64,000 bases of DNA from the NCBI GenBank assembly GCA_937891905.1, contig CALATT010000051.1, forward strand, positions 3,135-67,134, written 5' to 3'. The translations under genes were made by a program, and so were the position numbers. This document shows positions 34,546 through 64,000 of this stretch, in pieces. The notes beneath the pieces are model-generated. The model had not been told where the DNA came from, searched no databases, and saw only the letters and a program-made list of their open reading frames with translations. Origin of the DNA: an uncultured Bacteroidales bacterium. Lineage in GTDB: Bacteria; Bacteroidota; Bacteroidia; Bacteroidales; Paludibacteraceae. Numbering within the stretch: the first letter of the stretch is position 1; each line of letters opens with the position of its first letter.

Positions 34546-35427
34546 ATGAAAGGAATCATATTGGCTGGAGGCAGCGCTACTCGTTTGTATCCATTGAGTA
34601 AGGCTATTAGCAAGCAGATTATGCCTGTCTATGACAAACCCATGATTTATTACCCATTATCAACCTTAATGCTTGCGGGTATTCGCGAGGTGCTTATTAT
34701 CAGTACCCCTCGTGATTTACCGATGTTTGAGGAGTTGTTAGGCGATGGTAGTCGTATAGGTATGAAATTCGAATACAAAGTACAGTTGATTCCTAATGGT
34801 TTGGCTCAGGCTTTTGTATTAGGAAAAGATTTCCTAAATGGAGAACCTGGTTGTTTGATTTTAGGCGACAATATGTTCTATGGCCAGCATTTCCGTCGTA
34901 TGTTAGTGGATGCAGTAAAAGAGACTGAGCAAGGCGGAGCTTGTGTGTTTGGTTATGAAGTAGCAGATCCTCGTGCTTATGGCGTGGTAGAGTTTGATGC
35001 AGATGGCAAGGTAGTTAGTTTAGAGGAAAAACCCCAGCATCCTAAGAGCAACTACGCAGTGCCTGGTTTGTATTTCTACGATTCCACGGTATGTGACAAA
35101 GCGGCAGTGTTAGAACCCAGTACTCGTGGTGAATATGAGATTACCGATCTCAATAAGATGTATTTGCAAGAGGGCAGTCTAAAGGTAAAGCTCTTTAGTC
35201 GCGGATTTGCATGGTTGGATACAGGTAACTGTGATAGTCTGCTAGAGGCGGGAAATTTTATTGCTACTATTCAAAATAGACAAGGATTTTATGTGAGTTG
35301 TATAGAGGAGATTGCTTGGCGTAACGGATGGATCAGTACCGAGCAATTAGAGGCTTTGGGTCAGGAGATGAAGACGGCTTATGGTCGTTACTTGCAGCAA
35401 CTTGCTCATTCACAATTTTCCAGATAA
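34546..35427 (+). CDS. rfbA: Glucose-1-phosphate thymidylyltransferase
   Basis: Motifs are MKGIILAGGSATRLYPL and YDKPMIYYPLSTLMLAGIREVLIIS, plus YGVVEFD and the C-terminal region. The ORF-track start at 34540 is a TTG, so the ATG at 34546 is preferred. Confidence 0.92.
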   Translation: MKGIILAGGSATRLYPLSKAISKQIMPVYDKPMIYYPLSTLMLAGIREVLIISTPRDLPMFEELLGDGSRIGMKFEYKVQLIPNGLAQAFVLGKDFLNGEPGCLILGDNMFYGQHFRRMLVDAVKETEQGGACVFGYEVADPRAYGVVEFDADGKVVSLEEKPQHPKSNYAVPGLYFYDSTVCDKAAVLEPSTRGEYEITDLNKMYLQEGSLKVKLFSRGFAWLDTGNCDSLLEAGNFIATIQNRQGFYVSCIEEIAWRNGWISTEQLEALGQEMKTAYGRYLQQLAHSQFSR

Positions 35428-51387: not shown

Positions 51388-51911
51388 TAAGAAATAAATA
51401 CATAATACTGCTTCTTGGATTGGTACTACTAATCGGTTGCCGACCTAAAGGGATTATCAGTTCAAGAGAAATGCGTGACATACTCATCGACCTCCATAAA
51501 ACAGATGGACTGCTACAAGTATGCGGATATCAACACGGGTATGATGAAACGAGAAACATCTACTACGCGATGGTATTGGAAAAACATGGCATTACGCAAG
51601 CACAGTTTGATTCATCCTTGGTTTGGTACACCGCCAACCCACAACTATTCGATAAGATTTACCCAAAAGTATTGGCGGCTATTGAAGAAGAGAAGGACCA
51701 ATATTACGCACTACACAAAGCAGAGTTTGGGCCACAAGAATTTAACACCAATGCTGAACAACAATCATCACAACCCGAACTGCCCGCACTCACAGCCGAA
51801 GAAGCAGCATATCAAGTAGATAGCATCCTATGGGTCATAGGCCATGGCTATCCGTCTATCTGGAATCCTTATCCGGTTAAAGATCCCGAACCGCCATTCA
51901 TCCGATTATAA
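51384..51911 (+). CDS. DUF4296-like lipoprotein
   Basis: The lipobox is LLIGC. The N-terminal SSREMRDILIDLHKTDG pattern, and a position immediately after lspA, are usual for this Bacteroidota family. The GTG start overlaps the lspA stop by 4 nt. Confidence 0.55.
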   Translation: MIRNKYIILLLGLVLLIGCRPKGIISSREMRDILIDLHKTDGLLQVCGYQHGYDETRNIYYAMVLEKHGITQAQFDSSLVWYTANPQLFDKIYPKVLAAIEEEKDQYYALHKAEFGPQEFNTNAEQQSSQPELPALTAEEAAYQVDSILWVIGHGYPSIWNPYPVKDPEPPFIRL

Positions 51912-51918
51912 TACACAA

Positions 51919-51948
51919 CGAAGCCCTTTCACGGGCTTCGTTATTTTA
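51919..51948. terminator. Bidirectional hairpin terminator between convergent genes
   Basis: The stem cgaagccc / gggcttcg encloses the loop tttcac and has a T-rich 3' flank. It overlaps the holA stop codon. Confidence 0.6.
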
Positions 51949-53010
51949 ATGCATTATTTTATAAATCAGTTCTTTCCACAAGTCCGCATCTTTGGCAGAA
52001 GGATTATTTATACCCTTCAATCGCGCATCCACCTCGCGCAGATAACCTATAATATAGAATACCTTACCCGCAGGATAATTACGCGCTGCCTCCGTGTAGT
52101 CCTTCACAAAGAATGGATTGATGCCCAACTCACGCGATACAGCTTCCTTGCTCTTATCGGGCATATAATGGTACATCAGCAGATTTGAAAAAAATGTGAA
52201 GAGCGGACTCAATTCGCGTATCATAGGATGGTCCTTACTGCTCGCGAAATAGTTTGTTATCTGCACCGCTTTGGCTATATTCTTCTTAACAAGCGCATTC
52301 TGCAATTCAATGATATTAAAATCCTTAGAAATACCTATATTACGCTCCACTAATTCAGCATTGATAACACGCACTCCTTCAGGACAACCATCTATCAGTT
52401 TGCGCAATGCACCTACAATAGCAGAGAGGTCTGTACCTATATGATCCGCCAGCAAAGGAGCCACGCGTGGGTCTATGGTCAATGCACTCGCTGCTTGTCC
52501 TTCTTGCTTGCGGCGACTCTCCGCCTTAGCATTAAAATCATTGATATACGCACTTATCCACCGTTCCACTTCGTAATCACGCAGTTTATCGCTCTGTAAC
52601 CACACCACTTGCGGATGGTCCGTCAGTTTTTTCCACACTCCTTGACGCTTATCGGGTTTGCCATTATAGCAAATAAGCAAAAGTGTTTGGTCCATCAAGT
52701 TATCCAAATAAGCAACCAATGCTTCCCATTTCTTCACCACTTGTGCCTCGCGCACAATAATCACCTTACGGCCACCCATCATGGAATAACCACGCGCGGC
52801 ACCTATCACCGTCGATATATCTGCGCCTGGTAAGTCACGACCATAGAGCACTTGCTGGTCAAACTCACGAGCCATCTCATCCAATACATTGGTAGAGATG
52901 AATTGGTAGAGTTGGTCAATATAATAAGCCTCCTCGCCACACGCAATATAAATAGGTGCATACTGCCCCGCTTGAAGCGTACGCATTATCTCATCAAACT
53001 TCTTAATCAT
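51946..53010 (-). CDS. holA: DNA polymerase III delta subunit
   Basis: It is 354 aa long. The N-terminal YAPIYIACGEEAYYIDQ pattern and the overall helical C-terminal domains are typical of HolA. Confidence 0.75.
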   Translation of the reverse strand: MIKKFDEIMRTLQAGQYAPIYIACGEEAYYIDQLYQFISTNVLDEMAREFDQQVLYGRDLPGADISTVIGAARGYSMMGGRKVIIVREAQVVKKWEALVAYLDNLMDQTLLLICYNGKPDKRQGVWKKLTDHPQVVWLQSDKLRDYEVERWISAYINDFNAKAESRRKQEGQAASALTIDPRVAPLLADHIGTDLSAIVGALRKLIDGCPEGVRVINAELVERNIGISKDFNIIELQNALVKKNIAKAVQITNYFASSKDHPMIRELSPLFTFFSNLLMYHYMPDKSKEAVSRELGINPFFVKDYTEAARNYPAGKVFYIIGYLREVDARLKGINNPSAKDADLWKELIYKIMH

Positions 53011-54613
53011 TGCTTGGAATGTAAATCATATATTTATACTCACTTCGGTCTATCTCTCTATACCCCTCAGCACGCAGCATATCCTCCAACGCACTCTGCG
53101 TATCCTTATAGGTGGGTTTGGTCTTAAAATGCGGAGCAAAAGTGCAGAATATAATAGGCCGCTCTCGGCGCACATAATCCTGGTACTTCGCCGTATATAC
53201 CTTATCAAAGATATTCGACCAAAATTCATTGTACACCGCCGCTTGGCAACCCGTCACCTCGCGCACCATATGCATGCGTTGTCCAACGGCTACTATGGTT
53301 GCATTACTATCAGCATACTGCTCATAATCAGCCTTCACTTGCTCCAACCACTCTGCTTCTTGGGCTGTGACCTTAATATGCTCGTATGGCGGCACAGAAG
53401 CCCAAGTATCCACCTGACTCAAATCACACTTACCCACACTATTCGTACTAAAACGATTCATAACAGCAAAAGCAAAAACAAACAAAAGAGGTAACAAATA
53501 CGCATATATCTCTTTTTTATGCTCTACCGCTGCGATAGGTAATAAGCACAACACAGCAGGGAATAATTTCATCCAAGCCGTATCCGTACCTAACGGAGCC
53601 ACTACCATGAGCAGCGCACCCCAACCTAATTCTTTCTTCTTAGACATAACAGCCAACACCAAGCATAGCGCAGAAATCATGTATGTCAAATCCATATTAT
53701 ACCACTGGGTTCTCTTAAGTGCAAAAGCAATATAGTGTGCCAACAAAAATCCAACTATCAATCCCACACCATACATTGCCGCATTACACCATGGTGCTTG
53801 TGACCACCGTTTATTCAACTCACGCCCCATAAACACTACTCCTACCCATATTGCTGCCATTCCAAAGAGCAATGCACCCTTCGTCCATAACTGCTCTATC
53901 ATCTTGCTTATCTGATGGCTACCCATCGCCGCATCCATATAGGCAGGTTTCATCACCACCCACGCAACACCATATAGCGCACCCGCACCGATAAGCACAG
54001 CACATAGATACCAGACAATATGACCAAGACGCTTCTTCCACGATTGATCATTAGCCACACACAACGCGCCAAGTATAATAGGCAACACCAAAATATTCGG
54101 GAAACGAACAACTATAGCCATACCCGTCACCACGCCCAATGCTATCAACCATACTCGCTTTTTTGTCCGTTGAAATCGAATTAAGATGCACCATAAAGCA
54201 GACAAACAAAGTACCGTCAGCGTACCTGGACTGAACTCTTGATAGGCTCCATAATTGATTAGCATCAAGGCAATGAAAAGCCATGACAGATTCGCCTTTC
54301 TCTGTTCGCGGTTGAGCAGTATGCAATAAGGCAGTATAATCGCTGCTATGACGCACAACCAAGCTACAAGGCGTAAAGGCATCAAGTGTTCACCCAATAA
54401 CTCCACCAATACATGCCCAATAACTATCGTGCCACTTGCCATCCATCCACCCTCTGCATGCGCATACTTATGCATCCAATAGAGCGGGTCCATTTCATTA
54501 CCCAAACCCTCAAATACATAACGCAGCGAGCATACGAGCGCGAATAAAATCAAAAGCCACCACCCGCAACGGACGAAATATGTTTTATTTTTATCCATTA
54601 TTATAATGCGCAT
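53003..54613 (-). CDS. Polytopic membrane protein with C-terminal soluble domain; putative GT-C-fold glycosyltransferase (ArnT/Gtr-type)
   Basis: About 11-12 hydrophobic helices are followed by a ~130-aa soluble C-terminus. An acidic motif, GNEMDP, lies in the first loop after TM1. Its operon context is the GtrB-like GT2 and small flippase-like proteins. An alternative ATG lies at 54598. Confidence 0.45.
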   Translation of the reverse strand: MRIIIMDKNKTYFVRCGWWLLILFALVCSLRYVFEGLGNEMDPLYWMHKYAHAEGGWMASGTIVIGHVLVELLGEHLMPLRLVAWLCVIAAIILPYCILLNREQRKANLSWLFIALMLINYGAYQEFSPGTLTVLCLSALWCILIRFQRTKKRVWLIALGVVTGMAIVVRFPNILVLPIILGALCVANDQSWKKRLGHIVWYLCAVLIGAGALYGVAWVVMKPAYMDAAMGSHQISKMIEQLWTKGALLFGMAAIWVGVVFMGRELNKRWSQAPWCNAAMYGVGLIVGFLLAHYIAFALKRTQWYNMDLTYMISALCLVLAVMSKKKELGWGALLMVVAPLGTDTAWMKLFPAVLCLLPIAAVEHKKEIYAYLLPLLFVFAFAVMNRFSTNSVGKCDLSQVDTWASVPPYEHIKVTAQEAEWLEQVKADYEQYADSNATIVAVGQRMHMVREVTGCQAAVYNEFWSNIFDKVYTAKYQDYVRRERPIIFCTFAPHFKTKPTYKDTQSALEDMLRAEGYREIDRSEYKYMIYIPSND

Positions 54614-55727
54614 TGATATAATCGCAAATCATATCCACCTCTTCTATCGTGAGGTCATAATACAAAGGCAATCGCACCAAGCAGTCTGCATAACGGTCAC
54701 ATTGCAGCAATGCCCGACCATCATGCTTATCTTGATAATAATCCGAACTATGCAAACTCAAGTAATGGAACACTGCCAAGATACCATTCGCTTTCATCGT
54801 CGCTATCAATGCCGTACGACTTGCCAAATCAGGCAACACCAAATAGAACATATGCGCATTAAGCGAAGCGTATTCAGGAATATGTGGCAAAGTAAAAAAG
54901 CCTTTGCTTGCTAAGGGTTCCAAGCGCTCTTTATAGCGATTCCACAACAACTTACGCTTTTCTTGTATCTCATCAACACTCTCTAACTGTGCCCAAAGGA
55001 ATGCTGCATTCACCTCACTCGGCAAAAACGAACTGCCCATATCCACCCATCCATACTTATTCACTTCACCACGGAAAAACTCTGCTCGGTTGGTACCCTT
55101 CTCCCAAATAATCTCCGCACGATGGATAAACTTCTCGTCATTAATAACCAGCAAACCACCTTCGCCGCCAGCCGTTATATTCTTCGTCTCATGGAAGGAG
55201 AACGCAGCAAGGTGACCAATACCACCGAGCGGTTGCCCCTTATAATACGAGTCAATAGCCTGCGCCGCATCCTCTACCACTATAAGGTTATGCTTTTTCG
55301 CTACCTCCATAATAGCATCCATATCGCATGCCACACCAGCATAATGCACAGGTACAATCACACGCGTACGAGGAGTAATAAGCGACTCCAAACTATCCGC
55401 ATCTAAGTTCGGGTTACAACCCATCGAGTCTGCAAAAACAATCTTCGCGCCCTCGCGCAAGAAAGCCAATGCCGTAGAAACAAAGGTATAACTTGGTACA
55501 ATAACCTCGTCGCCTGGCTGCAATCCACAAAGCATGGCGCACATCTCTAAAGCGTCCGTACCGCTCGTGGTGAGTAGCGTCTTCTTAAATCCATAACGGG
55601 ATTCAAACCACTGCTGGCAACGCTTAGTGAACTTACCATTACCTGACAACTTACCCTCATGAACCGCCTCGTACATGTAGTGCGTCTCTTTGCCTGTCAA
55701 ATGAGGTTTATTAAATGGAATCTGCAT
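54591..55727 (-). CDS. dTDP-4-amino-4,6-dideoxyhexose (Fuc4N/Qui4N-type) transaminase, DegT/WecE family
   Basis: It closely parallels E. coli WecE. Matching segments are IPFNKPHLTGKE, GKFTKRCQQWFE, PSYTFVSTA, the PLP-Lys motif FSFHETKNITAGGEGG, EKGTNRAEFFRGEVNKYGW and NAHMFYL. Confidence 0.85.
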   Translation of the reverse strand: MQIPFNKPHLTGKETHYMYEAVHEGKLSGNGKFTKRCQQWFESRYGFKKTLLTTSGTDALEMCAMLCGLQPGDEVIVPSYTFVSTALAFLREGAKIVFADSMGCNPNLDADSLESLITPRTRVIVPVHYAGVACDMDAIMEVAKKHNLIVVEDAAQAIDSYYKGQPLGGIGHLAAFSFHETKNITAGGEGGLLVINDEKFIHRAEIIWEKGTNRAEFFRGEVNKYGWVDMGSSFLPSEVNAAFLWAQLESVDEIQEKRKLLWNRYKERLEPLASKGFFTLPHIPEYASLNAHMFYLVLPDLASRTALIATMKANGILAVFHYLSLHSSDYYQDKHDGRALLQCDRYADCLVRLPLYYDLTIEEVDMICDYINAHYNNG

Positions 55728-55742
55728 AGTGATTGATTGTAT

Positions 55743-56108
55743 TTATAAGAGCGATACATCCCACCATCCTCCCGGATGGCAAAAGAACAGCACCGCGCCT
55801 ATCATAATGATAATTATTGCTATTATTTTTCGTTTCGTTATCTTCTCGCCAAAACACATCCATGCCGCGATAGGTATCAGCAAGTAATTAATACACTCGA
55901 TAATACTTACCTCTTGAGCCAACACCCCCATATAAATAGCCAATAGATTGATTACCAAACTGACCACCATCAGTCCATAACCACCTATCACCCATATATT
56001 CACATACTCACGCCACCAAGAAGCATGGCGCTTCTTAGCACTCTTCTTGAGCATCATTTGACTCACCACGCCCAAAACGGCACTTACTATAACCAGTATA
56101 TATCCCAT
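55743..56108 (-). CDS. Small 4-TM membrane protein, SMR/EamA-half (ArnE/ArnF- or GtrA-role flippase subunit candidate)
   Basis: It is 121 aa long with four hydrophobic helices. It is paired with a second small 4-TM gene, as arnE/arnF are. Confidence 0.55.
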   Translation of the reverse strand: MGYILVIVSAVLGVVSQMMLKKSAKKRHASWWREYVNIWVIGGYGLMVVSLVINLLAIYMGVLAQEVSIIECINYLLIPIAAWMCFGEKITKRKIIAIIIIMIGAVLFFCHPGGWWDVSLL

Positions 56109-56109
56109 C

Positions 56110-56451
56110 TTATTCGTTCGATTTAGCGTACAATGCGATACCTCCCATAATAATCCCGGTAGCCAGTAGTTTCATCGGCGTAATGGGTTCGTCATAGCAG
56201 ATAGCCAACAAGACCATAATGAAAAACAAACTCAAGCCCTTGAACATATACGCCACACCCAACTCTATACGCTTGAGTATCTGCTGCCACGCAATAGCAT
56301 AAACACCCAATGTGGCCACCAAGAGCACAAAACCCACACACCACTCCATGGTGAGTGGTTGCTGCAAACCCGTGTACTTCATAATCACCGATATACCTGC
56401 ATAGAAGAGGTACACGAGCACTAAGGATATATATTGCACTGTCTTATTCAT
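56110..56451 (-). CDS. Small 4-TM membrane protein, SMR/EamA-half (second flippase subunit candidate)
   Basis: The start MNKTVQYISLVLVYLF at 56451 forms an ATGA overlap with the upstream stop. The longer ORF-track start at 56565 would overlap the acetyltransferase by 118 nt. Confidence 0.55.
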   Translation of the reverse strand: MNKTVQYISLVLVYLFYAGISVIMKYTGLQQPLTMEWCVGFVLLVATLGVYAIAWQQILKRIELGVAYMFKGLSLFFIMVLLAICYDEPITPMKLLATGIIMGGIALYAKSNE

Positions 56452-56990
56452 CGCATTTCTTTGATCACTCTCGCAGGATTGCCTGCCACCACTGCATAAT
56501 CGGGCACATCGTGTGTCACAATCGCACCCGCAGCCACTACCGCCTCTTTGCCGATACGAGTACAACTGGGTAAGATAGTCACATTACTGCCTATATAGGC
56601 CTTTTGCTCTATCACCAAGGTGGTCTGTTCGGTAGGATTAACTCCCGTGCGGCGCAACTCGCTTATATCATGCTTATGCGTAATAATATGCGTGCCTTGC
56701 AAAATCCACACTTCGTCCTCAATAGTCAGATGCCCTGTATAATCAAGCAGCACATCGTGACTGATAAAGACATTCTTACCTATCGAGATACTACCCGTCA
56801 CTTGCCTATGCTCCCTATCGATATGCACATTATGCCCCACATGTAATCCCTTACCTGCCTTGAAAAGGCGGCGGTACTTACTATCACGCCACTGCAATCC
56901 AATAGGCAAGTCAAACCAATTACTCATTACCAAGCGCTGACCCACCATGCGGTGTAATTGCTCTAAATTATAACGAACTTGTGCATTCAT
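56448..56990 (-). CDS. Left-handed beta-helix (hexapeptide-repeat) acyl/acetyltransferase
   Basis: The hexapeptide repeats and C-terminus read AYIGSNVTILPSCTRIGKEAVVAAGAIVTHDVPDYAVVAGNPARVIKE. Confidence 0.8.
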   Translation of the reverse strand: MNAQVRYNLEQLHRMVGQRLVMSNWFDLPIGLQWRDSKYRRLFKAGKGLHVGHNVHIDREHRQVTGSISIGKNVFISHDVLLDYTGHLTIEDEVWILQGTHIITHKHDISELRRTGVNPTEQTTLVIEQKAYIGSNVTILPSCTRIGKEAVVAAGAIVTHDVPDYAVVAGNPARVIKEMR

Positions 56991-56992
56991 AT

Positions 56993-57922
56993 TTATACGA
57001 TTTCATCGATCATAAACTTAGGACGCTGTTTGGTTTCCAAGAAAATACGACCTATATACTCACCCAATACACCCAAGAAAGCAAAATTAAGACCGAATAA
57101 GAAGAGCATGAGAACCATCATACTCGTCCATCCTGCCACCACATTACCCACCAACTTATATATAATCAGCGCCAATGCAGCCATCATACTTCCCACACAT
57201 AGTAATGCACCCAGATAGGTTACAATACGGATAGGGAACATAGAGAAAGAGAAAATACGAGCGAAAGTGAGGGCTAACATCTTACTCAGATTATATCCAC
57301 TCTTACCTGCAAAACGCGCATCACGCTTGAGCGGTACTGCTACATAACGGCTACCGATATAATAGAGCAAACTAACCGTCGTAGCTGTTTTCTCTGGGAA
57401 ATTACGCAGTTCCTCCACTACACTCTTTTTCATCACACGGAAGATACCCAAACGCGGCATGGTATGTATCTCCGTAATGGAATTACTTACTCTCTGGAAA
57501 AGACGAGAAACAGCCAACTTAAATCGGCTATCCTTACGCTCCTCCCATTGGGCTATCGCCATTGTGGCCTTTTCATCTGCCAACAACGCGTCTATCAACA
57601 CAGGTATATCCTCAGGCCTATCTTGCAAATCTGAATCCATCAGTACAATCAGTTCTTTGCTCGTTAACGACAAACCCGCAGCGATAGCACTCTGCTGACC
57701 GAAATTGCGACTCAAACGCACCGCCTTGATAGATGCGTTCGCTTGACGAACAGCCAACATCTGCAACCATGAGTCATCACGACTACCATCGTCCACCAAG
57801 ATAATCTCGTAATCAGCCGTGATAGACTCTAATACAGGACTGAGACGCTTAATCAACTCGTGAATAACTTCACTGTCATTATAAATCGGCACTACCACCG
57901 AGATAGATTGTTTGTATATCAT
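56993..57922 (-). CDS. GT2 polyprenyl-phosphate glycosyltransferase (GtrB/ArnC/DPM1-like)
   Basis: Motifs are ISVVVPIYND, ILVDDGSRDDS, LSRNFGQQSA and MDSDLQDRPEDI. There are two C-terminal TM helices followed by GEYIGRIFLETKQRPKF. Confidence 0.85.
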   Translation of the reverse strand: MIYKQSISVVVPIYNDSEVIHELIKRLSPVLESITADYEIILVDDGSRDDSWLQMLAVRQANASIKAVRLSRNFGQQSAIAAGLSLTSKELIVLMDSDLQDRPEDIPVLIDALLADEKATMAIAQWEERKDSRFKLAVSRLFQRVSNSITEIHTMPRLGIFRVMKKSVVEELRNFPEKTATTVSLLYYIGSRYVAVPLKRDARFAGKSGYNLSKMLALTFARIFSFSMFPIRIVTYLGALLCVGSMMAALALIIYKLVGNVVAGWTSMMVLMLFLFGLNFAFLGVLGEYIGRIFLETKQRPKFMIDEIV

Positions 57923-57932
57923 ATTTTTTCTA

Positions 57933-60230
57933 TTAGTCGAATGTTACAAATGGGAACGATTGAATATCCTCTTCATACACCCGCAGCAAGTCACTCATCG
58001 TCTCGCCACGCATCACCAAGTGACCAATACGATCATAGGCTGTACGGAAAGCATGCACTTCCTCGCCTATCTGCGGATAAATATCGCACGCCACCACCTC
58101 CTTACATGACGGTATTTGGCGTCCTTTCACCACACCTGTCTGCGTAGAGAAAGGAGTAAACACCAACGCAGGATAAAGAGCTTGTACAGGTATCTCTGGC
58201 AGCGATAATCCACACGCGCCGCAGAGTATGTATTCGTAGTAATTGATTCCAAAACACTCGCTCACCAATTCAGGCAAACATGTAGCACCCGCGCGCGCAC
58301 CAATCTCCAGCACATACACCTTATCATCACTCAGGATAAAATCCGCATTGATAGCACAGTTATCTATTTGCAAAGCGGCTATACATTTGCGCAACTGTTC
58401 CTCCACATCTGCCTGCAACGATTGTTCCGATGAATAGGGCGCAAAATGCCCCACAGGAATACCACTTGCACCGCGATAAATAAGATCCCCGTGTAGCATC
58501 ACAAACTGCAACTCACCATTGCGCACATATGCCTGCGCACCAAATTCCTCTCCATCCACAAACTGCTCCAGAACCATACTACTCGCATGCGTGTACGACT
58601 GTACCTCCGCATAAGCTGCTCGAAGGGTCGTCTCATCTCGACACACCACTACCCCTTTGCTACCACTACCATCCACAATCTTCAGCACCACAGGATAACC
58701 CAATTCGGTTGCTGCCATTAGCATAGATTCCTCAGAAAAAACTTCCCTATAGGCAGCCGTGCGCACGCCCTCACGCGCAAAGGCGTTTTTCATCAGCAAT
58801 TTATTGCTCGACACTACAGAAGACTCGTAACTGGGGCCCAACAAACCCAACGCGTCCACCACCTTACCTATCGTAGGCAAGATAAAATCCGACCCACAAC
58901 CTACTATCGCGTCTATCTCTTCTTCCTTCGCTATGCCAATCACCGCCTCAGCGTCCATAATATCCACATCATACCATTGCGAGGCCAACGCATAACCAGG
59001 GTAATCACCAGGATAACCCAACACCACCACTCTACAACCCATCTCTCGTGCCGTTTGTATGAGCGGATATTGATAGCGACCACCACCCAACACCATAACC
59101 GTCTTACCACGAAGTGTCTCAAATCGTCCGTTGGAATCGCAATAAATGAAATATCCACTCCTATCGCCGCTACAAGTCAAAGCGCGTATCTCCGTATCCG
59201 TCTGCTCAGCACAAACAATACTCGCATATTGCGACGCATGCGTGATATATGACTGCACCTCTGGTGTCTCGGCACTCAAGAAATGAACACCACTATACGC
59301 ATTTTTCGTCTTCACAGGCACCACCTCCATACCAAGTGCCACTTCAATCACTCCTTGCACAAAATCATACCCCGTACTCAGACGAACCAAATCGCTACCA
59401 ATAAAATCACCACCCATTCGTCCGCCTATCTCCATCACCACCACACGACCCTCAGCGGTAATCTTATACTCCGCATGACTCGCACCATTAGTAAGCGCCA
59501 AAGCATCCAAGGCACGCATAGTGATCGCATAAATATCGTCTTGCTTCGCTGCTGGTAAGTTAGAAGGTTGGTGGTGAGCCAACTCCACAAAATGCGGAGC
59601 TCCGGTTGTCTCTTTATCAGTAATCTGCAGCGCGTAGTGCGTGCCCCTACACGATAACATCTCCACACTGATCTCGCGTCCCTCAATAAACTCCTCCACC
59701 ATTGCTTCGCCCTTAAAAGACACACGCACTGCCTCCTTAATAGCAGCTTCCAATTGTGCCTTATCCTCCACCTTACTCACCGCCAAACTGCCACTCCTAT
59801 CCGACGGCTTCACAATAAGCGGAAAAGACATATACTCCAGTGCTTTCTCGTCGTATTCATGCACACATACATAGCGAGGACAATCCACTCCCGCGCCACT
59901 GAGCGCTTGACGCATCAGATACTTATTATTAGCACCCAAAGCCGCAGCATAACTATTCCCCGCCAATCCCATCTGCTCTGCCACATACGCCACTGTAGGC
60001 GCCGCCACATCGCTCGCTATCGTACATATACCATCTATCTTCTCCTCGCGGCAGATAGCCAAAATAGTCTCTTTCTCCACAATAGAGATAGGATAGAATA
60101 CATCGCATAAATCGCGACACACTGCTCCTTCTTCCCACGCAAAGCAAAGCGTACGCAACCCCATATTGTGGGCGCGTTCTATCAAGGGTTTCTGCAAATA
60201 ACCGGCTCCTATAATGGCTAATGTCTTCAT
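57933..60230 (-). CDS. Fused tandem ATP-grasp ligase (two complete ATP-grasp modules, 765 aa)
   Basis: Module 1 contains AIIGAGYLQKPLIERAHNMG, PLIVKPSDRSGS, MVEEFIEGREISVE and VVVMEIGGRMGGD. Module 2 contains VMVLGGGRYQYPLIQTAREMG, PVVLKIVDGSGSKG, VLEQFVDGEEFGAQ and VYVLEIGARAGA. Confidence 0.75.
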   Translation of the reverse strand: MKTLAIIGAGYLQKPLIERAHNMGLRTLCFAWEEGAVCRDLCDVFYPISIVEKETILAICREEKIDGICTIASDVAAPTVAYVAEQMGLAGNSYAAALGANNKYLMRQALSGAGVDCPRYVCVHEYDEKALEYMSFPLIVKPSDRSGSLAVSKVEDKAQLEAAIKEAVRVSFKGEAMVEEFIEGREISVEMLSCRGTHYALQITDKETTGAPHFVELAHHQPSNLPAAKQDDIYAITMRALDALALTNGASHAEYKITAEGRVVVMEIGGRMGGDFIGSDLVRLSTGYDFVQGVIEVALGMEVVPVKTKNAYSGVHFLSAETPEVQSYITHASQYASIVCAEQTDTEIRALTCSGDRSGYFIYCDSNGRFETLRGKTVMVLGGGRYQYPLIQTAREMGCRVVVLGYPGDYPGYALASQWYDVDIMDAEAVIGIAKEEEIDAIVGCGSDFILPTIGKVVDALGLLGPSYESSVVSSNKLLMKNAFAREGVRTAAYREVFSEESMLMAATELGYPVVLKIVDGSGSKGVVVCRDETTLRAAYAEVQSYTHASSMVLEQFVDGEEFGAQAYVRNGELQFVMLHGDLIYRGASGIPVGHFAPYSSEQSLQADVEEQLRKCIAALQIDNCAINADFILSDDKVYVLEIGARAGATCLPELVSECFGINYYEYILCGACGLSLPEIPVQALYPALVFTPFSTQTGVVKGRQIPSCKEVVACDIYPQIGEEVHAFRTAYDRIGHLVMRGETMSDLLRVYEEDIQSFPFVTFD

Positions 60231-61819
60231 TCTACTTGAATCTGAATTAAAGCATAGTTACTATTATGACATATGGGACGAATCTTGGTTTTTACACCAT
60301 AATGCTTCTCTATCTGCTCACATATACGCGGTATGGCCGTACGAGGCTGGTGATACTCAACCGATGTAAATACATACATATCATCACGCAATAACACACG
60401 ATAGCTATCACCTACATGCCTATGCAGTGGACACCAAGTTAACCATCCTAAGGTATATTTTTTATATGGCAGTGCCCATATATTCCATGGATTAGCACCT
60501 TCCATTCGCATAGCAGAACCAAGCGTCATCACATATGCATCACTCGGCACATAACTCAGCACTGGTAACTGCTGTTCACGCCATACATACCTATTATGTT
60601 TAGCTATGATCACTTCGTTATGTATCTGCCATACATACCATCCACTCAAAACAACCATCACCACGCCTATTCCCCACCTACGCTTTAGTCCTGTTGTCTT
60701 AGGCAGTAACATAAAATCCGTCACCAAAAGGGGCAGTAACATACAGATAAACACCCTATATTTCAAGAATCCATCCATACTCACATGCACTATCAATGCC
60801 GCCACAAAGAGCGAATAAGCAATCAAGAAAATATATTTGGTCTTATTACCTGTCGTTAGAATCATCAGCACCAACAATGCCAATAAAATACTTATCTCCA
60901 CCGCGTATTTCTCCATACGATGCAGATTAGACAACTGCTCATCCAATGGCACCGCACCCACTATAGCACTGAGTTGCCGAATAGCCTTCAGATCTATTTG
61001 CTCTGGATCAGGTATAAAACGCAAGAGCAGTTGATAATCTATCCAATCCACTTCCTTTGGCAACTGATTAGGTTGCAGTTTATACGCATTCGGATTGTCA
61101 TTCAACTGCGCCCGCAATTGATTATACTCACGATAATAACGCCATTCACTATCACGCTCATATGCATAACGATTAACCGCACGACAACCTACAATCAGCA
61201 CTAACATCACCACGATAGGTATATATCTGCGCCAATTCAAACGCAATACATACACAATGATTGGCGCCATCAATAATCCCACTAATCCAGCAGCCATAAA
61301 TCGAATCAAAGCGGCTATCACTACCAGCAACACACCCAACCAGCGACTACTCGTTCGCTCGCGCATTAGCAACACACAACCCGCCAAGCACACAAAACCT
61401 GCGGTCGTCGTAAACTGCAAAGAAATCACTATACGGCTCCATAATACATATAGAACCAACAACCACAAACCCTTTTCCCAACGAGCACGATTAGGAGTAG
61501 TAAGAATACAATAGGATAAAAAACTCATGGAGAGTATATGCAGCACCATGAATGAAAGTGTGTACCATTCAATGCCACTCGTCCAACCATACAAAAGCGT
61601 CAGCACATACCCATAAAGCACATTGATATATACCAAGTGATAATCAGGCACTCCCGAATACGAACCATTCGCTATCATCGCCATCATGATATCATCGTTC
61701 TCCTCATAACGGATTGGCAACACCGCTGACAAAATTGCCACAAAAGCGATATTCGCCATCAGCACCAAGGCAAACAGCGCATAACGATTAGCTACTATTT
61801 TTTGTATCACTTGGTTCAT
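60227..61819 (-). CDS. Polytopic membrane protein with C-terminal soluble domain; second putative GT-C-like protein
   Basis: It is 530 aa long. An acidic motif, RYEENDDIMM, lies right after TM1. Many helices are followed by a ~130-aa soluble C-terminus. Size and layout match the 53003-54613 product. Its stop forms an ATGA overlap with the ATP-grasp gene. Confidence 0.4.
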   Translation of the reverse strand: MNQVIQKIVANRYALFALVLMANIAFVAILSAVLPIRYEENDDIMMAMIANGSYSGVPDYHLVYINVLYGYVLTLLYGWTSGIEWYTLSFMVLHILSMSFLSYCILTTPNRARWEKGLWLLVLYVLWSRIVISLQFTTTAGFVCLAGCVLLMRERTSSRWLGVLLVVIAALIRFMAAGLVGLLMAPIIVYVLRLNWRRYIPIVVMLVLIVGCRAVNRYAYERDSEWRYYREYNQLRAQLNDNPNAYKLQPNQLPKEVDWIDYQLLLRFIPDPEQIDLKAIRQLSAIVGAVPLDEQLSNLHRMEKYAVEISILLALLVLMILTTGNKTKYIFLIAYSLFVAALIVHVSMDGFLKYRVFICMLLPLLVTDFMLLPKTTGLKRRWGIGVVMVVLSGWYVWQIHNEVIIAKHNRYVWREQQLPVLSYVPSDAYVMTLGSAMRMEGANPWNIWALPYKKYTLGWLTWCPLHRHVGDSYRVLLRDDMYVFTSVEYHQPRTAIPRICEQIEKHYGVKTKIRPICHNSNYALIQIQVE

Positions 61820-61823
61820 TCTA

Positions 61824-62297
61824 TTACCAAATTGCTTGAATCAATATAACCATCATCCAGCCGCAGCAGATCAGTTTGAGCACCGTGCCACATAAAATAC
61901 CTATAAAACTACCCCAACCGGCACGCAAGGCTTCTTTCTGTCCCTTGCCACCTATCAACTCTCCCACTATTGCACCCACCAGCGGACCGACGATAATACC
62001 TATCGCGCCAAAGAACATACCCACAAATACACCTATCGTACTTCCCCATACGCCGTATTTCGTTCCGCCATAACGCTTCGTACCCCAAGCAGGAATCACA
62101 TAATCCAACACAGATACGAGTATTGTCACCACACCCCATATAACTAAGGTTTGCCACGAGAAGTCAATACGCTCCGTAGCTTGGGCAATCCACAAACCCG
62201 CATAAGCCACAGGAATACCTGGCAATCCTGGTAATATACTACCCAATATGCCGATTATCATACATATCCCTGCAATAACAAGTAATACTATTTCCAT
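61824..62297 (-). CDS. DUF456-family membrane protein
   Basis: The Gly-rich TM helices are GSILPGLPGIPVAYAGLW..., WGTKRYGGTKYGVWGS and GPLVGAIVGELIGG, typical of DUF456/YqgC-like proteins. Confidence 0.65.
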   Translation of the reverse strand: MEIVLLVIAGICMIIGILGSILPGLPGIPVAYAGLWIAQATERIDFSWQTLVIWGVVTILVSVLDYVIPAWGTKRYGGTKYGVWGSTIGVFVGMFFGAIGIIVGPLVGAIVGELIGGKGQKEALRAGWGSFIGILCGTVLKLICCGWMMVILIQAIW

Positions 62298-62303
62298 TTT
62301 TTA

Positions 62304-63299
62304 TTATATTTTTTTTCTCATCAACATAGCACCTAATCGGTACACCAACGGACAATGCGCGTACATATACCGCCCATACTCAACCATCTCGCCACCAAAC
62401 TCCGCCTTGAAATCACGCACACCATATTGCTCATCAGGACGACCCGCGCCCATCAAATCCAATTGTGCTATACCCATACGCTCAGCCAATTGTATCTCTG
62501 CGTACTTAGTGAGCGAAGCGGGAGAGATCACACGCCGCTGGTCATCACGACCACACGCATACCATTCATACATCACCCGACCTTCCCACAAGATACACAC
62601 CGAACCACCAATAATTCGCCCTTCATGCTCTATTAAGATGAAACGACACACATCTGAGACATACAAACGCTCCCATGTATCCCACGAAGGAAGTGGCTTA
62701 TGTATCCGACGCACATATAAGTCGCGCAGCACATCATAATACTCTCTTACTTGCACCAAGGTGGGTTGCTCCACCACCCGTACTCCTTTCTGCACCGACG
62801 AATCAATACGCCTACGCTTACTCTTACCTATCCGCGAAATAGCCGCCTGTGCATTGCTCGTATCAATCCGTATATTCAAATGCGGCATATACCGCCACCC
62901 ATCTTGCTCTACCACTCCGCGCCATGCACTATGGTCACACAGATTACGAATCTCCACATAAATAGTGTCACTCGTCTGCTCCTTAATAGCCGCCATCAAT
63001 CGGCGATAAGCCTCAGCACTAATATCATCACTCACCATCACTCCACCCATAATCACCGCACGGCGACTCAACCACTGCCCTATCTTAATTCGCGCTTGTG
63101 GACGCATGATGACAGCCACACCACATAGCATCTCTTCCTCAGCCACACCCACTACCTCCATACGATAATCAGGCAAAGAAGAGAGCAATCGATACGCCTC
63201 CTCTGTTTGCCACCAAGTAGCAGTAGAGGACTCACGCACCAACTGCGCCCATTGCCTCTTATCTATCTGCTCATATGTGCGTAGCACGCTTATTCCCAT
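62304..63299 (-). CDS. FemAB-like / GNAT-fold aminoacyl (peptidyl) transferase family protein
   Basis: The C-terminal pattern is VMYEWYACGRDD...LTKYAEIQLAERMGIAQLDLMGAG...YGVRDFKAEFGGEMVEYGRY, as in COG2348/FemAB-type enzymes. The ATG at 63299 (MGISVL) is preferred over 63428. Confidence 0.6.
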   Translation of the reverse strand: MGISVLRTYEQIDKRQWAQLVRESSTATWWQTEEAYRLLSSLPDYRMEVVGVAEEEMLCGVAVIMRPQARIKIGQWLSRRAVIMGGVMVSDDISAEAYRRLMAAIKEQTSDTIYVEIRNLCDHSAWRGVVEQDGWRYMPHLNIRIDTSNAQAAISRIGKSKRRRIDSSVQKGVRVVEQPTLVQVREYYDVLRDLYVRRIHKPLPSWDTWERLYVSDVCRFILIEHEGRIIGGSVCILWEGRVMYEWYACGRDDQRRVISPASLTKYAEIQLAERMGIAQLDLMGAGRPDEQYGVRDFKAEFGGEMVEYGRYMYAHCPLVYRLGAMLMRKKI

Positions 63300-64000
63300 C
63301 GCCTGTCTTTTGCTAATAACCGTCCCAAACCATGCAACCAAGTGGTTGCCACCATATGGCGCGCATAGGACGGACTGTACGAACGGATACGCTTCGCATT
63401 GCGCAGACGAAGGCGCATCGTATGCCACTTACGCAACCAGCGATTAGACACAACCTTCCCACCTTGACTTTTCTCCTCACCTAATCGACCCTCGAGCATA
63501 TCTACCAACAAAACCTCAGCACGCCGAGCACAACGATGGGTATAGAATGGCGCTTCCGCTTGCGGCAAACCCAAGTATTTCACCAAGATATACATATACA
63601 CTTGCCATACATCCATCAGCGCCAAACCACGCAAGTCGCGCTCTAACTGCTCACGGTCTATATCCGATGCACGGCGGTGAAGCAGCAACACTAAATCACA
63701 TAACTGACGAATAGACGCTCCTTGCGACAACACATGCTCCCACGAATGAAGCATCACCATCAATGCGTTAAAAGTCACTTCAGGCACACGAACCGTCAAT
63801 CCATCCACTTCTATCTCCTCCGCCTCACGCATTCCTATTGCCTCCATACAAGCATAACGGCGCACATCTGTCGGGTGTTGCAAACCCATCGAAACACGGT
63901 GTACCTCAATAGACACCCCATCAGCAATCAAGTTGTAATGCTTGTAATGATCCAACTCCTCATCAAAGCGAAGAGCGTTAGGAAAAGTAGCGCGCATCGC
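63290..64000 (-). CDS. NTP_transf_5-like (uncharacterised nucleotidyltransferase family) protein, N-terminus outside the window
   Basis: The frame stays open to the window edge. The helical C-terminal part (SIRQLCDLVLLLHR...DREQLERDL...) resembles the PF14907-type family. This is a weak motif-level call. Confidence 0.4.
   Translation of the reverse strand, partial: AMRATFPNALRFDEELDHYKHYNLIADGVSIEVHRVSMGLQHPTDVRRYACMEAIGMREAEEIEVDGLTVRVPEVTFNALMVMLHSWEHVLSQGASIRQLCDLVLLLHRRASDIDREQLERDLRGLALMDVWQVYMYILVKYLGLPQAEAPFYTHRCARRAEVLLVDMLEGRLGEEKSQGGKVVSNRWLRKWHTMRLRLRNAKRIRSYSPSYARHMVATTWLHGLGRLLAKDRRWE

What the first reader, a model, noticed from the sequence alone, without database searches (positions are those of the whole stretch)
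54591..57922. Arn/Gtr-type core built around a dTDP-4-amino-4,6-dideoxyhexose rather than L-Ara4N or glucose
The transaminase is WecE-like (FSFHETKNITAGGEGG, EKGTNRAEFFRGEVNKYGW), which predicts a dTDP-4-keto-6-deoxyglucose substrate. rfbA is present in the window at 34546-35427. The adjacent GT2 has the GtrB/ArnC hallmarks, including the C-terminal double TM helix and the GEYIGRI...K.RP motif. It is flanked by an LbH acyltransferase and an ArnE/ArnF-like pair of 4-TM proteins. A polyprenyl-phosphate-linked (N-acyl) Fuc4N/Qui4N donor would be an unusual lipid intermediate.
Basis: partly seen in the sequence, partly recalled or inferred. Interest (0 to 1): 0.6.

Follow-up and report, generated by a model that had tools for sequence, protein, structure and literature searches.

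The report
Lipid-carrier amino-sugar surface decoration operon
An uncultured rumen bacterium carries a conserved operon that most likely makes an N-acylated 4-amino-6-deoxy sugar, loads it onto the membrane lipid carrier, flips it outward and attaches it to the cell envelope: a known strategy, used here with a sugar not yet shown for it.

Summary
Window 54591-57922 (minus strand) encodes five tightly packed genes. They are a WecE-family transaminase (above NCBI's equivalog cut-off, 57% identical to a solved dTDP-4-amino-4,6-dideoxygalactose transaminase), two 4-TM half-size EamA proteins, a hexapeptide acyltransferase, and a full-length GtrB/ArnC-type polyprenyl-phosphate glycosyltransferase.

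These genes sit in a longer operon with a double ATP-grasp ligase and two unrelated GT-C-fold membrane proteins. The block is conserved in about 40 species of rumen Paludibacteraceae.

In relatives the parts are swapped for non-homologous equivalents. The acyltransferase becomes a VioB/PglD-type or WecD-like N-acetyltransferase. The flippase becomes an LPG_synthase_TM protein. WecE, the GT2 and a GT-C stay together throughout.

The donor sugar, the acyl group and the acceptor remain untested.

The scheme is known. An inferred precedent is the Xanthomonas wxcK-O branch that adds Fuc3NAc. Earlier notes of this scan report similar modules in at least 47 other genomes. I found no paper describing such a lipid intermediate. 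I class it as a new variant of a known kind, of moderate interest.

The parts
54591..55727 (-). WecE-family PLP transaminase (378 aa). Predicted reaction: dTDP-4-keto-6-deoxy-D-glucose to dTDP-4-amino-4,6-dideoxy-D-galactose (Fuc4N).
   Evidence: NF008687 scores 555 bits (cut-off 375). ArnB scores 205 (cut-off 631). PDB 4PIW scores 432 bits at 56.6% identity. The HETK lysine motif is present.
55743..56108 (-). Half-size EamA/DMT protein (121 aa, about 4 TM). Candidate subunit of a lipid-linked-sugar flippase.
   Evidence: Pfam EamA E 3.5e-4. ArnE 16.8 bits, below the cut-off of 92. Hydropathy supports about 4 TM.
56110..56451 (-). Second half-size EamA/DMT protein (113 aa from the ATG at 56451). 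Candidate partner subunit of the flippase.
   Evidence: Pfam EamA 28.5 bits. ArnE 24.8 bits and ArnF 16.5 bits, both below cut-off. Its start overlaps the LbH stop by 4 nt.
56448..56990 (-). Left-handed beta-helix (hexapeptide) acyltransferase, 180 aa, of the maltose/WbbJ/WcaF type.
   Evidence: Pfam Hexapep. NCBIfam best hits are WbbJ, MAT and WcaF, all below cut-off. PDB best hits are maltose O-acetyltransferases, followed by the WxcM-like, WlbB and QdtC N-acetyltransferases.
56993..57922 (-). GtrB/ArnC-type polyprenyl-phosphate glycosyltransferase (GT2, 309 aa, two C-terminal TM helices).
   Evidence: Full-length match to GtrB 5EKP (E 9e-58) and ArnC (E 2e-49). The DSDLQD motif is invariant in 40 orthologues. 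TM helices at about 236-254 and 268-286.
57933..60230 (-). Tandem double ATP-grasp ligase (765 aa, L-amino-acid-ligase type). Module 1 is conserved in nearly all related loci. Module 2 is found only in this variant.
   Evidence: Two ATP-grasp stretches plus LAL_C2. PDB 3VOT matches module 1 and 4DIM matches module 2. Variant distribution.
60227..61819 (-). GT-C-like polytopic membrane protein 2 (530 aa). Invariant EENDD loop after TM1. No Pfam family.
   Evidence: AlphaFold model pLDDT 77. Foldseek top hits are ArnT 5EZM (E 1.8e-4), ALG12, EmbB and ALG9. Invariant residues. The family has 2483 cluster representatives at E<=1e-10 and no Pfam hit.
53003..54613 (-). GT-C-fold glycosyltransferase 1 (536 aa, PMT_2/ArnT-like). 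The most variable gene of the block.
   Evidence: Pfam PMT_2 41.5 bits. Model pLDDT 86. Foldseek hits STT3, ArnT, PglB, PMT, Emb and AftA. About 45% identity among orthologues.
61824..64000 (-). Upstream operon genes: DUF456 (61824-62297), FemAB/GNAT-like (62304-63428, or from the ATG at 63299), and NTP_transf_5-like (63290 to beyond the window end).
   Evidence: Pfam hits. Gaps or overlaps of 10 nt or less.
51946..53010 (-). holA (DNA polymerase III delta). It overlaps the GT-C 1 stop by 8 nt and is the last gene of the transcription unit. A hairpin at 51917-51942 follows it.
   Evidence: ORF map. Adjacency is conserved in related loci. The hairpin has a 10-bp stem.
34549..35406 (+). rmlA/rfbA glucose-1-phosphate thymidylyltransferase. 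It supplies dTDP-glucose and is not part of the operon.
   Evidence: TIGR01207 scores 453.7 bits (cut-off 360.65). rmlB, rmlC and rmlD lie on contig C96.

Best explanation
The operon encodes an extracytoplasmic glycan-decoration pathway of the three-component (Gtr/Arn) kind. It is built on a dTDP-derived 4-amino-4,6-dideoxyhexose.

Inferred steps:

1. RmlA and RmlB, encoded elsewhere, make dTDP-4-keto-6-deoxyglucose.
2. WecE aminates it to dTDP-Fuc4N.
3. The 4-amino group is capped in the cytoplasm. In the sister variant a VioB/PglD-type N-acetyltransferase does this. In this strain the capping is probably done by the ATP-grasp ligase(s), which would add an amino acid or other carboxylate, together with the small LbH acyltransferase.
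4. The GtrB/ArnC-type GT2 transfers the N-acyl sugar to undecaprenyl phosphate.
5. The pair of half-size EamA proteins flips the lipid-linked monosaccharide.
6. The two GT-C-fold enzymes transfer it to one or two envelope acceptors, such as LPS, another surface glycan or a glycoprotein.

Shown here: gene identities, folds, operon structure and conservation. Inferred: the donor of the GT2, the acyl group, the flippase role and the acceptor.
For: - WecE identity is secure.
- The precursor genes are present.
- The GT2 is a full-length homologue of GtrB and ArnC, with D94/D96/Q98/D99, K132 and R197 equivalents.
- The GT2 is the only cytoplasmic glycosyltransferase in the operon.
- At the position of GtrB D157 it carries Ile. 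ArnC, whose donor is a 4-formamido sugar, carries Met there.
- Both large membrane proteins model as GT-C folds.
- All genes are packed with gaps or overlaps of 23 nt or less.
- The block GT-C 2, ATP-grasp, GT2, LbH, EamA, EamA, WecE, GT-C 1 is conserved in about 40 species.
- Both genomes whose locus lacks WecE encode a WecE homologue elsewhere. In one it is 73-74% identical and lies next to another GtrB-like GT2 and an EamA pair. In the other it is 45% identical.
- Non-homologous replacement preserves the logic. L054 has LPG_synthase_TM, GT2, VioB-like LbH, WecE and a PMT_2 GT-C. L126 has GT2, a WecD-like GNAT, WecE and a PMT_2 GT-C.
- The 29 variant-B loci carry a TIGR03570 N-acetyltransferase.
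- The nearest GT2 homologues in Lachnospiraceae also lie beside a DegT aminotransferase and an ArnT-like GT-C.
- An orthologous ATP-grasp (50% identity) sits directly beside WecE in a locus with a WecF-like GT56. This links the ligase to the nucleotide-sugar stage.
- ArnC accepts only the N-acylated donor (paper 10.1101/2025.01.29.634835). This fits the constant presence of an N-capping enzyme.
Against: - No biochemical or expression data exist.
- The nucleotide and sugar specificity of a GtrB-type enzyme cannot be read from sequence.
- The GT2 falls below the cut-offs of every named NCBIfam equivalog.
- The LbH of this strain most resembles O-acetyltransferases.
- In variant B an N-acetyltransferase and an ATP-grasp ligase coexist, so the two cannot both simply cap N4.
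- The EamA proteins match ArnE/ArnF only weakly.
- In one congener (G023) the GT2 is replaced by a 34%-identical paralogue while WecE stays. The pairing is therefore not strictly one-to-one.
- The genome also makes dTDP-rhamnose, so WecE is not the sole user of the precursor.
Confidence: 0.6

Rival explanations
1. The GT2 loads an ordinary sugar (Glc, GlcNAc or Gal from a UDP donor) onto Und-P, as a classical Gtr system does. The WecE-derived sugar is made for a different, Leloir-type pathway encoded elsewhere. The two functions share an operon only because both serve the same surface glycan.
For: GtrB-type enzymes with proven donors mostly use UDP-sugars (paper; my own knowledge). The GT2 scores slightly higher against GtrB than against ArnC. 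In G023 the GT2 is exchanged for a distant paralogue while WecE remains. WecE also occurs with a GT56 Leloir transferase in L129.
Against: No other cytoplasmic glycosyltransferase is present in the operon. No GT56 was found in the genome, although it is only 77% complete. WecE-GT2 adjacency recurs in independent lineages with different GT2 clades and different flippases. A nucleotide-amino-sugar N-acetyltransferase sits between GT2 and WecE in L054, L125 and variant B.
Confidence: 0.17
2. This is a true Arn analogue that adds positive charge. The sugar is N-acylated only transiently, deacylated on the lipid carrier by an unlinked enzyme, and transferred as cationic Fuc4N to lipid A or core phosphates, giving resistance to cationic peptides.
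For: The gene logic copies ArnB, ArnA (formyltransferase), ArnC, ArnE/F and ArnT. GT-C 1 matches ArnT by fold. ArnC needs an acylated donor that is later deformylated.
Against: No ArnD-like or other deacetylase domain occurs in the operon or in the related loci examined. The locus is patchy within the genus and exists in swapped variants. That pattern fits antigenic decoration better than a conserved charge-masking function. There are two GT-C enzymes and additional ligases.
Confidence: 0.1
3. The transaminase acts on a different 4-keto nucleotide sugar, for example a UDP- or GDP-linked 4-keto-6-deoxyhexose. The lipid-linked sugar would then be another 4-amino sugar, not Fuc4N or Qui4N.
For: DegT-family specificity can shift. 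Variant C in G023 has an extra NAD-dependent epimerase/dehydratase beside WecE.
Against: The protein exceeds two WecE-specific cut-offs and is 57% identical to a solved dTDP-4-amino-4,6-dideoxygalactose transaminase. No dedicated dehydratase lies in this operon, whereas RmlA and RmlB are present in the genome.
Confidence: 0.08

Closest known systems
Arn (Pmr) pathway for lipid A L-Ara4N: ArnB, ArnA, ArnC, ArnD, ArnE/F, ArnT
   Same: Both combine a DegT-family 4-aminotransferase, an N-acylation step before loading, an ArnC-type transfer to Und-P, a pair of small 4-TM proteins and a GT-C transferase. All are in one operon.
   Different: The transaminase is WecE-type (dTDP-hexose), not ArnB (205 bits against a cut-off of 631). 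There is no ArnA decarboxylase/formyltransferase and no ArnD deformylase. The acyl group is probably retained. There are two GT-C proteins plus ATP-grasp ligases. The small membrane proteins and the GT-Cs are not orthologues of ArnE/F/T.
Gtr-type three-component glycosylation (GtrA/GtrB/GtrC of Shigella and Salmonella phages; CsbB/GtcA/YfhO in Gram-positives)
   Same: Both use a GtrB-type Und-P glycosyltransferase (36% identity to the solved GtrB), a small flippase and a GT-C transferase acting outside the cytoplasm.
   Different: The donor is a purpose-built amino-deoxy sugar with its own biosynthetic genes, rather than UDP-Glc or UDP-GlcNAc. The flippase candidates are EamA halves, not GtrA family (PF04138). 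The GT-C families are different.
Xanthomonas campestris wxc region 3 (wxcK, L, M, N, O): Fuc3NAc side branches of the O antigen
   Same: A dTDP-derived acetamido-dideoxyhexose is made by a DegT aminotransferase and an acetyltransferase. These are encoded together with a GT2 (WxcL), a small membrane protein (WxcN) and a large membrane protein (WxcO). Mutants in wxcK or wxcN lose the branch (PMC4878081, PMC12573098, PMC13133917).
   Different: It is a 3-amino sugar (with an isomerase step) rather than a 4-amino sugar. It occurs in a proteobacterium. There are no ATP-grasp ligases. The lipid intermediate is likewise not demonstrated. That WxcL is of GtrB type is my recollection of Vorholter et al. 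2001, not checked here.
Enterobacterial common antigen branch WecE/WecD/WecF
   Same: The same transaminase family and the same predicted product, dTDP-Fuc4N, followed by N-acylation.
   Different: In ECA, dTDP-Fuc4NAc is used by the cytoplasmic GT56 WecF on Und-PP-linked lipid II. Here no GT56 or WecD is present, and a GtrB-type enzyme takes that place.
Pentofuranose three-component systems (Citrobacter youngae ORF12-15; mycobacterial decaprenyl-P-Araf)
   Same: A dedicated lipid-linked monosaccharide donor is made by operon-encoded enzymes, flipped, and used by one or several GT-C enzymes. New GT-C families are still being founded (PMC11127046).
   Different: That donor derives from PRPP, not from a nucleotide sugar. 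The synthase and flippase families differ.

Membership tests
WecE (dTDP-4-amino-4,6-dideoxygalactose transaminase, NF008687 / TIGR02379) | Score above the curated equivalog/subfamily cut-off over the full length | tested here: met
   555 bits against 375, and 519 against 435, covering residues 2-374.
WecE (dTDP-4-amino-4,6-dideoxygalactose transaminase, NF008687 / TIGR02379) | PLP-binding lysine in the SFHxTK motif and close similarity to the solved enzyme | tested here: met
   FSFHETKN is present. 56.6% identity over 357 columns to PDB 4PIW.
WecE (dTDP-4-amino-4,6-dideoxygalactose transaminase, NF008687 / TIGR02379) | Substrate dTDP-4-keto-6-deoxy-D-glucose and a galacto-configured product | not testable with these tools
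   RmlA and RmlB are present, so the substrate is available. Stereochemistry needs an enzyme assay and NMR.
Polyprenyl-phosphate glycosyltransferases of the GtrB/ArnC/DPMS type (GT2) | N-terminal GT-A domain with DxD, juxtamembrane helices and two C-terminal TM helices, alignable end to end with solved members | tested here: met
   Residues 7-307 align to GtrB 28-328 and residues 6-309 to ArnC 9-314. DSDLQD is invariant. TM helices confirmed.
Polyprenyl-phosphate glycosyltransferases of the GtrB/ArnC/DPMS type (GT2) | Transfer of a monosaccharide from a nucleotide sugar to Und-P | not testable with these tools
   Needs an in vitro assay or lipid LC-MS.
ArnC orthologue (NF007986) | Score above the equivalog cut-off | tested here: not met
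   178.9 bits against 529. It is a homologue, not an orthologue.
Arn pathway | ArnB-type UDP-Ara4N transaminase | tested here: not met
   NF008658 scores 205 bits against 631.
Arn pathway | ArnA (UDP-GlcA decarboxylase/formyltransferase) and ArnD (deformylase) in the system | tested here: not met
   No such domains occur among the ten operon proteins I scanned against Pfam and NCBIfam. I did not look for unlinked copies elsewhere in the genome.
Arn pathway | ArnE/ArnF heterodimeric flippase | tested here: inconclusive
   There are two adjacent proteins of about 4 TM, 113 and 121 aa long. ArnE and ArnF scores of 17-25 bits lie far below the cut-offs of 92 and 99.
Arn pathway | ArnT-type GT-C transferase | tested here: inconclusive
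   GT-C fold with ArnT 5EZM among the top hits (E 4e-6 and 1.8e-4), but TM-scores are only 0.38-0.45 and there is no ArnT HMM match.
Gtr three-component system | GtrA-family (PF04138) flippase | tested here: not met
   The small proteins hit EamA only.
Gtr three-component system | GT-C-fold serotype-specific transferase encoded next to the Und-P glycosyltransferase | tested here: met
   Two GT-C-fold models flank the core.
ECA Fuc4NAc branch | WecD GNAT and WecF GT56 partner enzymes | tested here: not met
   None is present in the operon. PF07429 was not found in the genome, which is 77% complete.

The most novel reading that the evidence does not exclude
The sugar loaded on the lipid carrier is not simply N-acetylated. 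It would carry a short peptide on N4, built in the cytoplasm by the two ATP-grasp modules and possibly extended by the FemAB-like enzyme. Bacteroidota would then export a polyprenyl-phosphate-linked peptidyl-amino-sugar and graft it onto the envelope through two previously uncatalogued GT-C families. The N-acyl group, the flippase type and the capping enzymes would be swapped as a cassette between species.
Probability: 0.22. Interest if true: 0.75.

Novelty: new variant of a known kind. Interest (0 to 1): 0.5.

Why it matters
If confirmed, the set of lipid-linked monosaccharide donors (Glc, GlcNAc, Gal, Ara4N, GalN, GalA, pentofuranoses) would gain dTDP-derived N-acyl 4-amino-4,6-dideoxyhexoses. 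It would also show that GtrB/ArnC-type enzymes can take dTDP donors.

The module is not a curiosity of one genome. It is fixed next to holA in about 40 rumen Paludibacteraceae species. It recurs with swapped parts in other Bacteroidota and, according to earlier notes of this scan, in several other phyla. Its variable GT-C, acyl-capping and flippase parts look like a serotype-diversifying cassette. That bears on phage and host recognition of abundant rumen bacteria.

It also points to two membrane-protein families that deserve a glycosyltransferase family assignment. One has about 2,500 cluster representatives and no Pfam model.

Tried and rejected
- Sequence-profile searches of both large membrane proteins against PDB gave only noise. 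Fold comparison was needed.
- A profile-profile comparison of the two GT-C-like families found no homology. They are not paralogues.
- The search for homologous proteins with the GT2 returned only near-identical rumen sequences and no distant relatives.
- Four literature searches found no paper on an Und-P-linked Fuc4N, Qui4N or viosamine donor.
- The sigma-70 promoter scan was at background level (27 found against 26 expected). The terminator scan was only mildly above background. Only the hairpin after holA is convincing.
- I considered reading nucleotide specificity (dTDP against UDP) from GT2 motifs such as YND instead of YNE. I rejected this as unreliable. The papers consulted give no rule for it.
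- I considered the rfbA in the window as a pathway-specific gene. I rejected that because a full rmlABCD set exists.
- I considered the two loci lacking WecE (L049, L051) as evidence against coupling. I rejected that because both genomes carry WecE homologues elsewhere.

Full report
**What is there**

The window comes from an uncultured rumen Paludibacteraceae bacterium. One search found a 100% match to MAG DOME_MAG_5269. The assembly is 1.75 Mb and 77% complete.

From about 64000 down to 51946, all genes lie on the minus strand. Gaps or overlaps between them are 23 nt or less. In transcription order the genes are:

- an NTP_transf_5-like protein
- a FemAB/GNAT-like protein
- DUF456
- a 530-aa polytopic protein (GT-C 2)
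- a 765-aa double ATP-grasp ligase
- a GT2
- a hexapeptide (LbH) acyltransferase
- two half-size EamA proteins
- a DegT-family transaminase
- a 536-aa PMT_2 protein (GT-C 1)
- holA

A 10-bp hairpin at 51917-51942 closes the unit. The finding's coordinates, 54591-57922, cover the five genes from the transaminase to the GT2.

**Check of the observation**

- **Transaminase.** It is WecE-type. NF008687 scores 555 bits (cut-off 375) and TIGR02379 scores 519 (cut-off 435). ArnB reaches only 205 bits against a cut-off of 631. It is 56.6% identical to PDB 4PIW, a solved dTDP-4-amino-4,6-dideoxygalactose transaminase.
- **GT2.** It aligns over its whole length with Synechocystis GtrB (E 9e-58, 36% identity) and Salmonella ArnC (E 2e-49). 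The alignment includes the juxtamembrane region, the two C-terminal TM helices and the GEYIGRI...K.RP motif.
  - The GtrB residues D94, D96, Q98 and D99 (here DSDLQD), K132 and R197 have equivalents.
  - GtrB D157 is Ile here and Met in ArnC. The GtrB paper itself states that D157 is not conserved in the family.
- **Small proteins.** Both have about four TM segments. They hit EamA, and they hit ArnE/ArnF only far below cut-off.
- **Precursor genes.** rmlA lies at 34549-35406 and rmlB on another contig. rmlC and rmlD are also present. The precursor is therefore available, but rfbA is not pathway-specific.

**The flanking membrane proteins**

Neither protein matched PDB by sequence profile. The AlphaFold models were usable, with pLDDT 86 for GT-C 1 and 77 for GT-C 2.

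- GT-C 1 hits STT3, ArnT, PglB, PMT, Emb and AftA.
- GT-C 2 hits ArnT, ALG12, EmbB and ALG9.

Each has an invariant acidic motif in the loop after TM1: D42 in GT-C 1 and E39/D42/D43 in GT-C 2. The two are not detectably homologous to each other.

The GT-C 2 family has 2,483 cluster representatives at E<=1e-10. Ten sampled members have no significant Pfam hit.

**Conservation**

GT2 orthologues of 80% identity or more occur in about 40 species-level genomes. All are rumen or gut Paludibacteraceae or Bacteroidales MAGs. Within a sample of the genus they are patchy: 5 of 24 genomes carry the orthologue.

In these loci the order is kept: GT-C 2, ATP-grasp, GT2, LbH, EamA, EamA, WecE, GT-C 1, holA. 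WecE is adjacent in 37 of the 39 loci long enough to tell.

The two exceptions do not break the link. Both genomes encode a WecE homologue elsewhere. In one it is 73-74% identical and sits next to a different GtrB-like GT2 and an EamA pair. In the other it is 45% identical.

Two variants co-vary perfectly:

- **Variant A, 11 loci, including this window.** These have the double ATP-grasp, the 180-aa maltose/WbbJ-type LbH and one type of EamA pair.
- **Variant B, 29 loci.** These have a single ATP-grasp or none in the sequence recovered, another type of EamA pair, and a 219-aa LbH. In the two examples scanned, that LbH passes the cut-off of the NeuD/PglD/VioB nucleotide-amino-sugar N-acetyltransferase family.

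A third variant, in G023, has a 34%-identical GT2, an extra ATP-grasp and an epimerase/dehydratase.

Identity to the window protein is about 80% for the GT2 and WecE, about 65% for GT-C 2, and about 45% for GT-C 1.

**Independent occurrences**

- A distant Bacteroidia genome (L054) has LPG_synthase_TM, GT2 (65% identity), VioB-like LbH, WecE and a PMT_2 GT-C.
- In a sample of 401 Bacteroidota genomes, 61 have WecE above cut-off. Of the 28 best-scoring loci outside this genus, five have a GtrB-like GT2 within 1.5 kb. My rough chance estimate is well under 1%.
- Their wider contexts include the following:
  - GT2, a WecD-like GNAT, WecE and a PMT_2 GT-C
  - WbqC, GT2, a methyltransferase, an EamA half and WecE
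- The nearest GT2 homologues outside the phylum (34-37%, Lachnospiraceae) also sit beside a DegT aminotransferase, a second GT2 and an ArnT-like GT-C.
- One Bacteroidota locus has an ATP-grasp 50% identical to module 1, directly upstream of WecE and a WecF-like GT56. This ties the ligase to the nucleotide-sugar stage rather than to the lipid stage.

**Most likely mechanism**

The steps below are inferred unless marked otherwise.

1. RmlA and RmlB make dTDP-4-keto-6-deoxyglucose.
2. WecE makes dTDP-Fuc4N. This step is well supported.
3. N4 is capped. The VioB-type enzyme does this in variant B. In this strain the ATP-grasp module(s) and the small LbH probably do it.
4. The GT2 loads the N-acyl sugar onto Und-P.
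5. The EamA pair flips it.
6. The two GT-C enzymes attach it to envelope acceptors.

The need for capping parallels ArnC, which accepts only the formylated donor. No deacylase is present in the operon, so the acyl group is probably retained.

I cannot settle the role of ATP-grasp module 1 in variant B, where an N-acetyltransferase is also present. One reading is an N-acetyl-aminoacyl substituent, a kind known from O antigens (from my own knowledge). I put this at about 35%.

The patchy, cassette-like variation of the acyl, flippase and GT-C parts suggests antigenic decoration rather than a housekeeping function.

**Comparison with known systems**

The logic is that of the Arn pathway and of Gtr-type three-component systems (reviewed in PMC11127046). 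Membership of Arn fails on ArnB, ArnA and ArnD. Membership of Gtr fails on GtrA.

The closest precedent for a dTDP-derived aminodideoxyhexose in such a setting is Xanthomonas wxcK-L-M-N-O. There, wxcK and wxcN mutants lose the Fuc3NAc branches (PMC4878081; gene list in PMC12573098; WxcL counted among the GT2 enzymes in PMC13133917). The lipid intermediate has not been shown there either.

I found no paper describing an Und-P-linked Fuc4N or Qui4N donor.

Earlier notes of this scan list similar WecE + GtrB/ArnC + GT-C modules in at least 47 other genomes, some with ATP-grasp ligases. I treated those as leads. My own checks on Bacteroidota and Lachnospiraceae loci agree with them.

**Verdict**

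I class it as a new variant of a known kind. It is uncharacterised but widespread. Confidence in the core mechanism is about 0.6, and interest is about 0.5.

Noticed in passing
window 60227-61819: The 530-aa GT-C-like protein belongs to a large family with no Pfam or NCBIfam model. A profile search found 4,284 cluster representatives at E<=1e-3 and 2,483 at E<=1e-10. Ten sampled members had no significant Pfam hit.
   Followed up: partly
window 55743-60230 and loci L020-L060: Across 40 related loci three features co-vary perfectly: the second ATP-grasp module, the LbH type (maltose/WbbJ-like against VioB/PglD-like) and the type of EamA pair (11 loci against 29). It looks as if the acyl-capping enzymes and the flippase are exchanged as one cassette.
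   Followed up: partly
window 51946-53010: holA, an essential replication gene, overlaps the stop of the GT-C gene by 8 nt and ends the glycan operon. This adjacency is kept in nearly all related loci, even though the glycan genes vary.
   Followed up: no
L054:2551-9037: In the distant Bacteroidia relative, the GT2-LbH-WecE-GT-C core is preceded by an ATP-grasp ligase, a LUD-domain protein, a MaoC dehydratase, an HpcH/citrate-lyase-like aldolase and a PGA_cap (CapA-like) protein. This hints at an unusual acyl or poly-amino-acid substituent.
   Followed up: no
L129:7552-10963: An ATP-grasp ligase 50% identical to module 1 of the window protein lies directly upstream of WecE and a WecF-like GT56. 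This is a Leloir-type counterpart of the same sugar chemistry.
   Followed up: partly
L124:7390-10850 and L127:6823-10646: Other Bacteroidota have WbqC-like, GtrB-like GT2, (methyltransferase), an EamA half and WecE. WbqC is a family of unknown mechanism. From my recollection, not checked here, it occurs in O-antigen clusters that make N-acylated Qui4N.
   Followed up: no
L085:6336-17197 (G023, same genus): This is a third locus variant. The GT2 is replaced by a 34%-identical GtrB paralogue. It has a second, apparently frame-shifted ATP-grasp gene and an NAD-dependent epimerase/dehydratase beside WecE.
   Followed up: partly
window 51917-51942: A strong 10-bp hairpin (6 G-C pairs) lies between the convergent genes ending at 51911 (+) and 51946 (-). 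It is probably a bidirectional terminator.
   Followed up: no
window 56993-57922: At least 120 distinct proteins 98-100% identical to this GT2 exist in public metagenome assemblies, some on contigs longer than 200 kb. The species appears to be very abundant in sequenced samples.
   Followed up: no
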